From: Octopus sinensis
Lineage: Eukaryota
DNA: 64,000 bases
Reading direction: 5' to 3'
Assembly (NCBI RefSeq): GCF_006345805.1
Contig: NC_043001.1
Coordinates: 92,566,001-92,630,000, forward strand
The position numbers were made by a program, and so were the translations under genes. The notes under the pieces are model-generated. The model searched no databases and had not been told where the DNA came from. It saw only the letters and a list, made by a program, of their open reading frames with translations. This document shows, in pieces, positions 20,867 to 40,939 of the stretch (position 1 is the stretch's first letter; every line of letters begins with the position of its first letter).

Positions 20867-22100
20867 ATCAAGGAATGCTGATTCTGATGTGCCTCATATT
20901 GATAATGTGGTTTAACAGCTGTAGTAGGACCTACTGTTGAGAATTAGATATCATTAACTTAAATGACTTCAATATTAATAGTGACGATAACTGAAAGAAG
21001 AGAAGTGAAAGGAAAACAGAAAAAGAAAGCATGAACAGAATTTTAAAGAGAAATATTTTGTTTGTTCATGATATACTCAAGTTAGTTGAAGAATTTGTTG
21101 GTGAGTGAACTAATTGATTCAAAATTATATGAAATAAATCCCCCAAATATGAACATTTATTGTTAGTGAGAGACTGTAATGAAATTAGGCAAAAAAAAAA
21201 AATGAAAGAAAGAAAGGAAATGCTCACCAAATTATAATTTAGAATATTGAAGATAATATAAAATAACAATTAGGGACTTGCAAGCCTGTACTTCAGGAAA
21301 CATATCCATATTTTAGAAAGGGTTGAAACCTTACTTCTAAGAGTTTCAACTGAGGTTGAATTTAATTTATAAAATATATATTATATTATCATAGGCAAAT
21401 ACAACCATATTAGAATTTGACAAATTGGTCATAGAAAGTCAAATGATTTTTTTTCTTATTGCCTTTTTCAGTCAGAATATATATTTTTTATGATGGAAGA
21501 GATAAATGGTTGCTATAATGTAGGCATTAATAATTTACATGAAATAAAATAACTATATTTAGAAATCAAATTGCAAACTCAATTCATTTTAGGATCAAAA
21601 TTGATTCAATCAATTTCCAAAATTGTTAAATTCTTTAAGTATGAATAAATCACCTGCTGAACATTGCATCCAAAGTAATCTTTCTATTCTCTTTGTTCCA
21701 GTGTGTATTGAGTTCACTAAGCCTGACAGATCCTACATTTTCTTCCTTACACACAGATACATGAATATTTACTTAGCCTGAAATACGCTAAATTTTGACT
21801 AGCTGGATGCTCTCTTCAAAAAACATTAATTTTTTAAATGTAAATATCATACTTGTTATATTGTGTGAGAGATTACAGAATCTTCCTTCTGTATAATTTA
21901 ATGATATTAAAATTTTGGAAAGGGAAAAAAATCAAAATATGTGAATTATTAAATTTTCTTCAATTATGATATACATTTTTAGGTCACTGCTATTGCAATG
22001 TTTCTTTACTATTGAGAGGGGCATAACAGAATCAAGACAAAAAATACATAAAATGAAAACAAGCAAAATTATCTATACCCTTTTCATATATACATATATA

Positions 22101-24475
22101 AGGAGAAATAAAGTACTCAGAAATCTGGATGGTTTTATATTTACAGATATTTATTAATACGTCACATGTTTTTATAAATCATATATTAGCACTTGCATCC
22201 ACTCAAGTGGAGTCTTCAGATTGAATTTTTTCAGATCTGTCTCTTTTTATAGTATTATTGAGTGTGTAGGGGTGGAAAGACATAAGATAGTAAAAGAGGG
22301 TGAGGAATGGGGAGAAAGTGAGAGAGAGAGTGTGCGTGTGTGTGCCTTTTTATCTGAAAGAAGTGTCAATGGAAAAGAGAAAGAAAGGAAGAAGGAAGAG
22401 AGAAAGAAGAAAAAAATGTGTTTACTTTTATACAGCTGGTCAGTTCTTTCAACAGAAAGTCATTCTTGGCTTTTAGAACTTTTAGAACAGGGAACTCATA
22501 GATAAACGTTTCAAAACAGACTTTATCACCAAAGCCACCCAATTAATACTTGAAGAAAACACATTCTCATTTAACAACAAAACATACTGACAGATAAAGA
22601 GTATGGCTATATGTACGAAATTCGCACCTTCATATGCCAACCTGGTGATGGGTTTCCTTGAGAACAAAATATACGATGAAATAAGGAAAGTCTTCGAGCA
22701 TGAATTCAGAGAAGACATCAAGAAAAAGTGGAAACGCTACCTCGATGACTGTTTCATCTTTTGGAAAGATCAGAAGATCTATGAACATTCCACAACATCC
22801 TCAACACACTGCACCCATCTATCAACTTCACGATAGATACCAGCCACAATGAACTTTTATTCCTAGACATCAACATCAAGATACACAACTCCATCGTCAC
22901 AACCAGATATCCACTACAAAAAAACAGACACACACCAATATTTAAATTTCTACTCCTGCTACCCCTCCCACATAAAAAGAAATATTCCATATAGTATGGC
23001 GAGACGCATATGCAGCATAGTAACCAACTCACAAACACACCAAATAAGACTAAATAAACTTAAAAACTTCCTACTAGAACAAAAATACCCACTCAAATTA
23101 ATAAAAAACGGAATCTCCAAAAACGAAAAACAAAGAAAAACATCATCCCCTTCATAAACACACACAACCCTGGAGTTACCAACATGTTTCAAATCATACG
23201 TTCAAACTTACAAATAGTCCTACAAAGTCCCAAAATGAGAAACATATTAAACAAATATCGCATAAAAAACCTGAAGAAACAACTAACAAGAGTGAACTTC
23301 TCATCAGAGACTAAAGCCGAATTCTTTGTAAAAGAGTGCGGAGATGGTAGATGTGGGATCTGCAGTAACCCCACCTACAAATATATAGAGGGAAACAAGC
23401 AAATAAAATTTAAGAGCGGTCACATATTGAAAGTAAATGCAGACATGAATTGCAAGATGCAGAACATAATATACTACATAACCTGCCCCACATGCAAGGA
23501 GAATTATATAGGCGAAACTGGAAATTCTTTATGCCAACAAGCCAGAATTCACCGACAACATGTCCAACAGGAGGAACTGCAAAAGATTCCACTGAGTAAA
23601 CATTTAGATACATGTGGAGAAGGAAAATTTAAGATCTTTACGTTCTATAAATGCCTAAGGAATGACACCTTCTTCAAGAAAAATACTTCATAACAAAGTA
23701 CTCACCCAAACTGAATGGCTGAAAATATTTCTGTAATGATTTGTACTAGATGAAGTAAATTTTTGTAAAGTAAATTGTATTAAACACACACACACAGAGT
23801 ACTATACATATGTACATATACATAAATAGAAACATTCTTACATTCAGATTCTCCAACCCATACCAGCATGGGAATCAAACATTGGATTGAAAGAACTGAA
23901 CAGTGGTATAGATGTCAACACAATTTTTTCTTCTTCCTTCTTTCTTTCCTTCTCTTTTCCATTGACACTCCTTTCAGATACACAGACACACACACACTCA
24001 CTCTCTCTCACAAGACAATGATAAAAAGAAATCCAGACAATTTTTTGAAAAATAACATTTACCCACCTTGAAGTAGCCACCTGGTTTTGCCATTTCTAAA
24101 AGCCAAGAATCACTTTCTATTGAAAGAACTGACCAGCTGTATAAAAGTAAACACATTTTTTCTTCTTCCTTTCCTTCTCTTTTCCATTGACACTCCTTTC
24201 AGATACAAAGGCACACACACACACACACTCTCTCTCTCTCTCTTTCTCTCACTTCCTCCCCATTCCTCACCCTCTTTTACTATCTTATATCTCTCTCCAT
24301 CCCTACACACTCAATAATACTATAAAAAGAGACAAATCTCCTGAAAAATTCAATCTGAAGACTCCACTAGAGTGGATGCAAGTGCTAATATATGATTTAT
24401 AAAAACATGTGGCATATTAATAAATATCTGTAAATATAAAACCATCCAGATCTGTGAGTACCTTATTTCTTCTAA
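22101..24475 (+). mobile_element. Penelope-like retroelement (probably Neptune-type), 5'-truncated and frameshifted, bounded by about 375-bp inverted repeats
   Basis: RT motifs MAICTKFAPSYANLVMGFLE and WKRYLDDCFIFW; Cys linker CGDGRCGIC; GIY-YIG domain NIIYYITCPTCKENYIGETGNSL..RIH. Arms about 22101-22478 and 24095-24475 are reverse complements; (TA)n lies on the right flank. Confidence 0.92.
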
Positions 24476-24510
24476 TATATAATATCTGTACATCATCTGC
24501 AAACCTTCTA

Positions 24511-39164: not shown

Positions 39165-39208
<44 letters not shown>

Positions 39209-39418
39209 AAGTACAAATAAAGGTTACAAGCCTCATTGAGGGATAGCAAAATTCTATGAAAGTACTGGCTCCCTATACAAAGACTGTTGAACATTACAGT
39301 TAATACTCAACAATAACAATATAAACCGTGGTTTATATATATTTATTTATTATAAGATAAGAATATAGAGAGATAATTAATAAATTATTATTTATTAATT
39401 AAAAAACTGACAAACAAC

Positions 39419-39502
39419 CCTTACAGCTGTTTCAGTTCAAGACATCCAGAAAATTAATTAATAAAAATGAAAAGTTATTTGTAAGTCAAATTTCATCAGA
39501 GG
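39419..39502 (-). ncRNA. Putative minimal type-I hammerhead ribozyme, mirror copy
   Basis: Minus strand cct-CTGATGA...GAAACAGCTGTA-agg, giving a 3-bp helix I (cct/agg). Plus-strand TCATCAG at 39493-39499 and TACAGCTGTTTC at 39422-39433. Confidence 0.65.
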
Positions 39503-39568
39503 TAGCTTAAGATATACGAAATATGAATAATGCAGGAATTGAACATCTATTTTGTATATCTTAAACTA

Positions 39569-39650
39569 CCTCTGATGAGATTTGACTTTCAAATAATTTT
39601 TAATTTTATAAATTAATTTTCTGGAGGTCTTGAACTGAAACAGCTGTAAG
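39569..39650 (+). ncRNA. Putative minimal type-I hammerhead ribozyme (Penelope-associated type)
   Basis: cct-CTGATGA (39572-39578), AT-rich imperfect stem II, GAAA-C-AGCT-G-TA-ag (39637-39650); palindromic helix III ACAGCTGT. Confidence 0.65.
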
Positions 39651-39711
39651 CGATGTTTGTCATTTTTAAAAATTAATAAATAATAATTTATTATCTCTAT
39701 TTTCTTATCCT

Positions 39712-39763
<52 letters not shown>

Positions 39764-40345: not shown

Positions 40346-40532
40346 ATAACTTTATCATAGTTCGATATATATATACATACACATATACATAAAAATTATC
40401 TTGTGTGTATATTGTTGTCCCTTTTTTGTATCACCTAAATGTCTGGATGTTTTGCATTCTTGTCCAATTTTATATATATATATATTATATATATATATAT
40501 ATATTATATATATATATATAGTGACTTTGGTC

Positions 40533-40939
40533 TCTTACTCTTTTACTCTTTTACTTGTTTCAGTCATTTGACTGCGGCCATGCTGGAGCACCGCCTTTTT
40601 TTTTAATCGAGCAACTCGACCCCGGGACTTATTCTTTTGTAAGCCCAGTACTTATTCTATCGGTCTCTTTTGCCGAACCGCTAGGTAACGGGGACATAAA
40701 CACACCAGCATCGGTTGTCAAGCAATGCCAGGGGGGCAAACACAGACACACACACGCATATATATATACATATATACGACGGGCTTCTTTCAGTTTCCAT
40801 CTACCAAATCCACTCACAAGGCTTTAGTCGGCCCGAGGCTATAGTAGAAGACACTTGCCCAAGGTGCCGCGCAGTGGGACTGAACCCGGAACCATGTGGT
40901 TGGTTAGCAAGCTACTTACCACACAGCCACTCCTGCACC
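40533..40939 (-). mobile_element. tRNA-derived SINE, family A, full length
   Basis: Reverse complement of 35313-35727. Confidence 0.9.

What the first reader, a model, noticed from the sequence alone, without database searches (positions are those of the whole stretch)
39356..39709. Palindromic mini-element carrying two mirror-image hammerhead ribozyme cores
Seen: an about 350-bp foldback beside (TA)n whose arms each keep the full core CTGATGA...GAAA-CAGCTG-TA, with a short helix I (cct/agg in the left arm) and palindromic helix III, while neighbouring AT-rich arm sequence has diverged. Known: Penelope-like elements carry minimal type-I hammerheads with palindromic helix III, proposed to cleave as dimers. 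Inference: because the copies are head-to-head, a transcript from either strand makes the antisense arm first and the ribozyme second, giving a self-masked ribozyme inside a host intron. This may be an ORF-less Penelope derivative or a distinct non-autonomous family.
Basis: partly seen in the sequence, partly recalled or inferred. Interest (0 to 1): 0.72.

Follow-up and report, generated by a model that had tools for sequence, protein, structure and literature searches.

The report
Two-armed Penelope scrap with decayed hammerheads
This hairpin is two cut-off tail ends of a Penelope-type jumping gene joined head to head in a gene's likely intron, a known layout; both copies keep the core letters of a long-armed hammerhead (self-cutting RNA) motif, but mutations and the hairpin itself are predicted to keep them from cutting.

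Summary
The foldback and both hammerhead cores are real. It is not a separate mini-element family. Both arms are 5'-truncated 3' ends of an older dispersed Penelope-like family (roughly 270 arms, about 8% from consensus). Longer copies run through about 2.4 kb of UTR into RT and C-terminal GIY-YIG remnants with Hydra-clade motifs. The insertion is larger than called (about 39213-39715): only the left arm carries a ~150-nt tail. 24 of 25 two-armed junctions pair one long and one short 3' end, and the arms share four variant bases, so one RNA was likely copied from both cut DNA ends. The family consensus folds as a type I hammerhead with a 58-nt helix II. Both window arms break the base of helix II, and the intact motif across the arms is within chance (P=0.11). 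The hairpin masks both cores, as a by-product. Unusual against print: the long helix II (2,116 exact motif matches with 50-95-nt spacers genome-wide) and the long tail. This scan already noted both the long helix II and the one-long-one-short layout on other DNA. Cleavage is untested.

The parts
39166..39208 (.). (GT)n(TA)n left flank, the microsatellite target
   Evidence: sequence
39213..39523 (-). Left arm: 5'-truncated 3' end of the element, family positions -100 to about +236 relative to the cut site (long end)
   Evidence: BLAST of family reference and consensus
39213..39335 (-). Tail between the short (about +90) and long (about +236) fixed ends, present on this arm only
   Evidence: 3'-end peaks at +80-99 and +230-249 across loci
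39419..39502 (-). Hammerhead motif, left arm (sense in the host transcript): helix I CCT/AGG, core 39499-39493, 59-nt helix II region (decayed), GAAACAGCTGTA 39433-39422, predicted cut after 39422
39524..39529 (.). 6-nt filler at the 5'-5' junction that matches neither arm
39530..39715 (+). Right arm: family positions -118 to about +90 (short end)
39569..39651 (+). Hammerhead motif, right arm: helix I CCT/AGC (third pair broken), core 39572-39578, 58-nt helix II region, GAAACAGCTGTA 39637-39648, predicted cut after 39648
39713..39760 (.). (TA)n right flank
49801..50085 (-). Host fibronectin type III exon; the intron that follows likely runs about 50 kb, past window position 1, to a transmembrane exon at G000:C5:92565544
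   Evidence: spliced-looking contigs match 49800-50086; PDB hits to titin, PTPRF, Dscam, sidekick; GT donor and phase-matched AG acceptor

Best explanation
The hairpin is one old two-armed insertion of the 3' end of a Penelope-like retrotransposon, likely of the Hydra clade, whose two mutated hammerhead motifs are predicted to be inactive. Shown: both arms belong to one dispersed family; longer copies lead into RT and GIY-YIG remnants; the family has two fixed 3' ends about 150 nt apart; two-armed copies join 5' to 5' and carry one end of each kind; the arms share variant bases. Inferred: the element's endonuclease nicked both strands of a (TA)n target; each DNA end primed reverse transcription on uncleaved element RNA from the same source copy, one at each fixed site; both cDNAs stopped about 100-120 nt past the ribozyme site and were end-joined with a 6-nt filler. 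Inferred for the source element: a type I hammerhead with 3-bp proximal helix I, 58-nt helix II and a 2-bp helix III whose palindrome lets two copies pair, likely cutting tandem transcripts weakly as a dimer. In host pre-mRNA (minus strand) the arms are predicted to form a ~170-bp duplex that buries both cores; this masking is a by-product of insertion geometry.
For: 44 matches at 78-100% from 40 of 283 candidates scored. Walk to ORF remnants; L084 and L091 hold endonuclease remnant, UTR, hammerhead and tail in one orientation. An intact 960-aa relative, flanked by two hammerheads with the same helix III palindrome, matches the remnants at 33-53% in the main aligned blocks of RT, linker and endonuclease. 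Linker CDCKIKSNC fits the Hydra CxCX5C motif (PMC8557442 section 11). 24 of 25 junctions are long+short, 8 of 8 among loci found without the tail query. Four shared non-consensus bases between the arms; no pairing of either arm with the other 52 arms reaches 4; random-pair mean 0.81. The consensus folds as a hammerhead unconstrained. Helix I covaries across families: 95 of 124 Watson-Crick pairs against 48 in permutations. An inverted 5'-truncated copy with a one-sided tail is described in PMC8557442; two RT start sites bounding the tail, extension of both strands and use of unprocessed RNA in PMC11167929.
Against: No tree was built, and the family's own N-terminal motifs (RWK, DKT) were not recovered. 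Pfam GIY-YIG match is below cut-off (E 0.012) and the homolog search found nothing. 2 of 6 foldbacks share only 1-2 variant bases. No compensatory change within the family (helix I third pair, P=1.0). The 31 clusters are imperfect and related, so that permutation overstates significance. Four 3' ends were assigned by hand from split alignments, 16 of 25 loci came from the tail query, and 'short' there means any end below +190. Snap-back copying is not excluded. No cleavage data.
Confidence: 0.85

Rival explanations
1. A distinct non-autonomous palindromic family (MITE-like or retrozyme-like) that moves as the foldback unit.
For: Short ORF-less copies far outnumber ORF-linked ones (283 and 426 first-look candidates for arm and tail, against 17 for far UTR). 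One other locus (L160) has a 5' end at the same -100 position. A short RNA from the terminal repeat cannot be excluded.
Against: 5' ends scatter from about +120 to -438 with different junction sequences; homology runs continuously into the ORF; only 5 of 27 loci have two hammerhead-spanning arms; no tandem array of the unit was seen in the family loci.
Confidence: 0.06
2. The second arm was made by snap-back: one cDNA folded on itself and was copied back as DNA, or the palindrome formed or was trimmed after insertion.
For: Explains shared variant bases. 5' ends within 10 nt of each other in 9 of 25 junctions (2.2 expected); 5 of 20 (1.9 expected, P=0.024) after dropping five junctions in an AT-palindromic zone. 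Many junctions overlap by 1-4 nt.
Against: Does not by itself give one long and one short fixed end in 24 of 25 cases; strongly unequal arms are common; the window junction has a 6-nt filler. Run-off of two RTs at one RNA break, or later loop deletion, also gives symmetry.
Confidence: 0.2
3. A selected, self-masked ribozyme switch that acts on the host intron.
For: Both 19-nt motifs are intact; the geometry masks the core; the intron is likely transcribed.
Against: P=0.11 for the intact motif; forced hammerhead folds cost 11 and 17 kcal/mol over each arm's best fold; the whole hairpin is about -180 kcal/mol; the arm that is sense in the host has the weaker helix II (-1.3 kcal/mol, z +1.2); 31 of 54 family arms still keep the 11-nt core, so retention is common.
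Confidence: 0.03

Closest known systems
Hydra clade of Penelope-like elements (Craig et al. 2021, PMC8557442; read: passages, section 11, supplement part 2 with File S2, supplement search hits; includes Hydra-1_Obim, 2507 bp)
   Same: C-terminal GIY-YIG, CxCX5C linker, CxxC and CxH around the conserved E and N, (TA)n targets, type I hammerhead near the 3' end with short palindromic helix III; inverted 5'-truncated copy with tail at one end.
   Different: Helix II region 58 nt against about 10-24 nt in the File S2 Hydra rows; about 2.4 kb between endonuclease and hammerhead (published elements generally under 3 kb in all); tail about 150 nt against 30-40; the File S2 hammerhead of Hydra-1_Obim has a different sequence.
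Poseidon element PAc of Anolis (Frangieh et al. 2024, PMC11167929; passages read)
   Same: Two fixed ends bounding a tail, AT-rich targets, copies that run through the uncut ribozyme site.
   Different: Other clade; shown in vitro there, only inferred here; tail about four times longer here.
Metazoan PLE hammerheads (Cervera and de la Pena 2014, PMC4209133; passages read)
   Same: Type I, short helix I, small palindromic helix III, dimer model, low expected activity.
   Different: Helix II there is 6-8 bp; here 13 bp with a 2-nt bulge plus a long AT-rich extension; helix III is present, so it is not the minimal form.
Non-LTR retrozymes (bioRxiv 10.64898/2026.07.22.740005, part 1 of 5 read; PMC7229834, listing and abstract start only)
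   Same: Non-coding stretch with a type I hammerhead tied to Penelope terminal repeats.
   Different: Retrozymes are head-to-tail tandem repeats; this is a head-to-head truncation product of a coding element.

Membership tests
EN+ Penelope-like element | RT plus GIY-YIG endonuclease in one ORF linked to the terminal repeat | tested here: met
   Broken remnants in the sense orientation upstream of the arm in L084, L091, L082; they align with an intact 960-aa relative. Absent from the window copy itself.
EN+ Penelope-like element | 5' truncation, inverted copy at the 5' end, tail at one end only | tested here: met
   26 head-to-head junctions against 2 tail-to-tail calls in complex loci; 24 of 25 long+short.
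Hydra clade | C-terminal endonuclease preceded by a CxCX5C linker | tested here: met
   CDCKIKSNC then VIYQCTV and YIGS in L082 frames; motif as.
Hydra clade | CxxC and CxH flanking conserved E and N; no CCHH | tested here: inconclusive
   Seen by eye in broken frames and clearly in the intact relative; no alignment run.
Hydra clade | RWK and DKT motifs at the N-terminus | tested here: inconclusive
   This part was not recovered for the family; the intact relative has RWR and DKT.
Hydra clade | Monophyly with Hydra in an RT/EN tree | not tested
   Reference proteins were seen only in a paper supplement; compared by eye.
Hydra clade | (TA)n insertion preference | tested here: met
   Both flanks here; most long ends are followed by TA repeats.
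Type I hammerhead | Core CUGANGA, GAAA, UH | tested here: met
   Both arms; position 7 varies A23/C16/T14 among 54 arms.
Type I hammerhead | Helices I and II close the junction (family consensus) | tested here: met
   8 of 8 junction pairs; helix II -10.5 kcal/mol, z -2.6; recurrent variants fall at N7, bulge, loop, CpG or wobble sites, except one in the distal helix II and one in helix I.
Type I hammerhead | Helices I and II close the junction (window arms) | tested here: not met
   6 of 8 and 7 of 8 pairs; both have an A-C mismatch at the second pair of helix II; forced fold -2.6 and +1.1 against -13.7 and -15.7 kcal/mol.
Type I hammerhead | Self-cleavage | not testable with these tools
   Only contigs were available.
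Non-LTR retrozyme | At least two head-to-tail units each with a hammerhead | tested here: not met
   No such array in the family loci mapped; definition.
MITE-like palindromic family | Fixed unit with matching termini repeated genome-wide (definition recalled) | tested here: not met
   Unequal ends and locus-specific junctions.

The most novel reading that the evidence does not exclude
Cephalopod Hydra-type retrotransposons form a radiation with long-armed hammerheads (50-95 nt helix II, missed by the usual descriptors) and a ~150-nt tail. Their two-armed insertions record both cut DNA strands priming on one uncut RNA. In introns these foldbacks become long double-stranded RNA that ADAR edits, so a retrotransposon's integration mechanism seeds editing substrates in the animal group best known for RNA editing.
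Probability: 0.3. Interest if true: 0.55.

Novelty: new variant of a known kind. Interest (0 to 1): 0.3.

Why it matters
This locus is a decayed scrap and matters little by itself. The family is a usable record of how Penelope-like elements integrate, which is still unsettled: two fixed ends 150 nt apart make two-site priming easy to test. The long helix II shows that descriptor searches with short spacers would miss many ribozymes, which may bear on the 'half-core' cases noted in PMC8557442. A young intact relative (L205, L206) offers a better test substrate than this copy.

Tried and rejected
Rfam: no hammerhead among the 150 of 234 rows shown for the window or the 16 local matches; the long spacer probably defeats the models. 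Run search: no RNA holder listed on record as RNA; runs are guessed RNA. In one search contigs of three such runs from one study cover both flanks but none matches the foldback as this locus; a hole in contigs is no evidence on expression, cleavage or editing, and no T>C cluster was seen there. Homolog search with a 132-aa RT piece among longer proteins: none. Naiad origin was considered because cephalopod Naiads are listed as 'HHR_half_core' and rejected because the endonuclease here is C-terminal. Within-family covariation: none. A pile-up of 5' ends at the cut site: not seen as a sharp peak (judged by eye). Dimer folding: the helix III palindrome duplex alone is -11.1 kcal/mol, and cofolding paired it for the right arm only; not decisive. 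Paper searches for a long stem II with retrotransposon and for cephalopod editing with Penelope inverted repeats returned 0; one search returned 5 papers, one relevant. The library lacks most subscription journals; Lunse et al. 2017 on dimeric PLE hammerheads is recalled, not seen; bioRxiv supplements were closed.

Full report
Observation. The foldback is real: 151 of 168 aligned bases are identical between arms. Both arms hold CTGATGA and GAAACAGCTGTA at the stated places, 58 and 59 nt apart. Contigs from a separate run match each arm exactly but do not bridge them. The claim that the core is spared while flanks diverged is not shown here: 15 mismatches in 146 columns, none in 19 motif columns, P=0.11.

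The family. The genome is 2.72 Gb and likely an octopus (inferred from its size and repeats; recalled). The right arm found 44 matches from 40 of 283 candidates scored. An exact 28-base pattern has 36 matches and fits 6 of 45 arms that were found by other queries, which gives roughly 270 arms. Arms average 7.7% from consensus. Walking 5' leads through about 2.4 kb of AT-rich UTR into broken RT-thumb, linker and GIY-YIG frames. L084 and L091 hold endonuclease remnant, UTR, hammerhead and tail in one orientation. The linker reads CDCKIKSNC, the CxCX5C motif of the Hydra clade (PMC8557442 section 11). [quoted passage not shown] No intact ORF of this family was among the 150 of 7,460 candidates scored; the best other match was 72% with a stop. 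The clade call rests on motifs; no tree was built.

Anatomy of the insertion. Family copies end at two fixed 3' sites, about +90 and +236 from the cut site, mostly into (TA)n. Here the left arm runs from -100 to the long end (39523 to about 39213), the right arm from -118 to the short end (39530 to about 39715), with a 6-nt filler between. One search found 26 head-to-head junctions and 2 tail-to-tail calls, both in complex loci. I dropped L037, whose junction lies at the edge of my reference. Of the other 25, 24 pair a long with a short end and 1 has two short ends. Caveats: 16 came from the tail query, though none of these had a second long end; 8 of 8 found by the body query were long+short; four ends were chained by hand. 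The window arms share four non-consensus bases; no pairing of either arm with the other 52 arms reaches four, and random pairs average 0.81. Four of six foldbacks share four, the other two share 1 and 2. 5' ends lie within 10 nt of each other in 9 of 25 junctions, but only 5 of 20 (P=0.024) after five junctions in an AT-palindromic zone are removed. An inverted 5'-truncated copy with a one-sided 30-40 bp tail is the described layout (PMC8557442). In vitro, the Anolis element extends both strands, starts at two sites bounding the tail and uses unprocessed RNA (PMC11167929). The best inference is two-site priming on uncut RNA from one source copy, then end-joining; snap-back copying remains a rival.

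The ribozyme. The family consensus folds unconstrained into helix I (CCT/AGG) and a long helix II, P(10.1-11.1)=0.965; helix II alone is -10.5 kcal/mol, z -2.6. Recurrent variants fall at position 7, the 2-nt bulge, the loop, a CpG and a wobble-tolerant site, with exceptions in distal helix II, the third pair of helix I and two upstream flank sites. The core differs from consensus at 4.9% of sites against 9.1% elsewhere in 54 arms, and 7.2% against 11.4% (P=0.04) in the 24 found without using the motif region; this likely reflects selection on source elements, since only 31 of 54 keep the core and 18 of 54 keep core plus helix III. No compensatory change was found within the family. 29 of 54 arms still close helix II with P>=0.5; the window arms rank last. 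Both carry a U-to-C change that breaks the second pair of helix II (6 of 54 arms have it), so the template likely already had a weakened ribozyme. Forced hammerhead folds are 11 and 17 kcal/mol worse than each arm's best fold, and the whole hairpin (-180 kcal/mol) pairs the cores on either strand.

Genome context. Exact CTGANGA-spacer-GAAACAGCTGTA matches number 2,079 (8-30 nt), 487 (31-49), 1,628 (50-66) and 488 (67-95), against 1, 1, 0 and 1 for the reversed pattern. In 60 sampled loci grouped into 31 imperfect clusters, helix I has 95 of 124 Watson-Crick pairs (permutation mean 48, maximum 73) and the first six positions of helix II 106 of 186 (mean 58); 10 of the 60 have an inverted copy upstream and none downstream. 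Published Hydra hammerheads have about 10-24 nt in helix II (File S2).

Host. A fibronectin type III exon (49801-50085, minus strand) ends in a GT donor, and a phase-matched transmembrane exon lies about 460 bp left of the window. The foldback likely sits in this ~50-kb intron; no read joint across it was seen. In that transcript the left arm, the one with the weaker helix II, is sense and comes second. A neighbouring foldback shows a T>C cluster that suggests editing (see noticed in passing).

Verdict. An ordinary two-armed Penelope-like insertion with decayed ribozymes, from a Hydra-like family with an unusually long helix II and tail. I found neither trait in print. Earlier notes of this scan report the long helix II in this genome and the one-long-one-short layout here and in other genomes; they are unchecked and are not counted as support.

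Noticed in passing
window 42861-43609: A second head-to-head foldback from another hammerhead family (core on the minus strand 43010-42931, 61-nt spacer). Contigs of one guessed-RNA run show 11 plus-strand T>C changes and 1 other inside it, against 4 of 20 in listed rows outside high-copy repeats (Fisher P=0.0001). 9 of 11 are in A-U pairs of the minus-strand hairpin and 10 of 11 have a 5' A or U. Looks like A-to-I editing; no DNA of the same animal.
   Followed up: partly
window 22094-24480: A third Penelope-like insertion: RT and GIY-YIG remnants (22591-23690, +) with a CxxxxCxxC linker (Neptune-like by recall), flanked by ~390-bp inverted arms.
   Followed up: no
L205:1171-6870 and L206 (G000:C26, C4): Two near-identical intact elements with a 960-aa Hydra-type ORF between two hammerheads whose helix II spans 85 nt (-38 kcal/mol), with a GUC cut triplet. 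Likely young.
   Followed up: partly
window 39213-39335 (-): The tail holds an AG/GTAACT sequence resembling a 5' splice site in the family consensus; it may be the start of the next copy's 5' UTR.
   Followed up: no
window 47363-47617 (-): A decayed Hydra-type RT thumb fragment (tblastn E 3e-4).
   Followed up: no
window 44474-46056 (-) and 40525-41014: A LINE RT fragment and a very abundant SINE-like repeat.
   Followed up: no
window 49801-50085 (-) and L197:9545: Host gene is an FN3 plus transmembrane receptor, turtle/IgSF9-like by recall only.
   Followed up: partly
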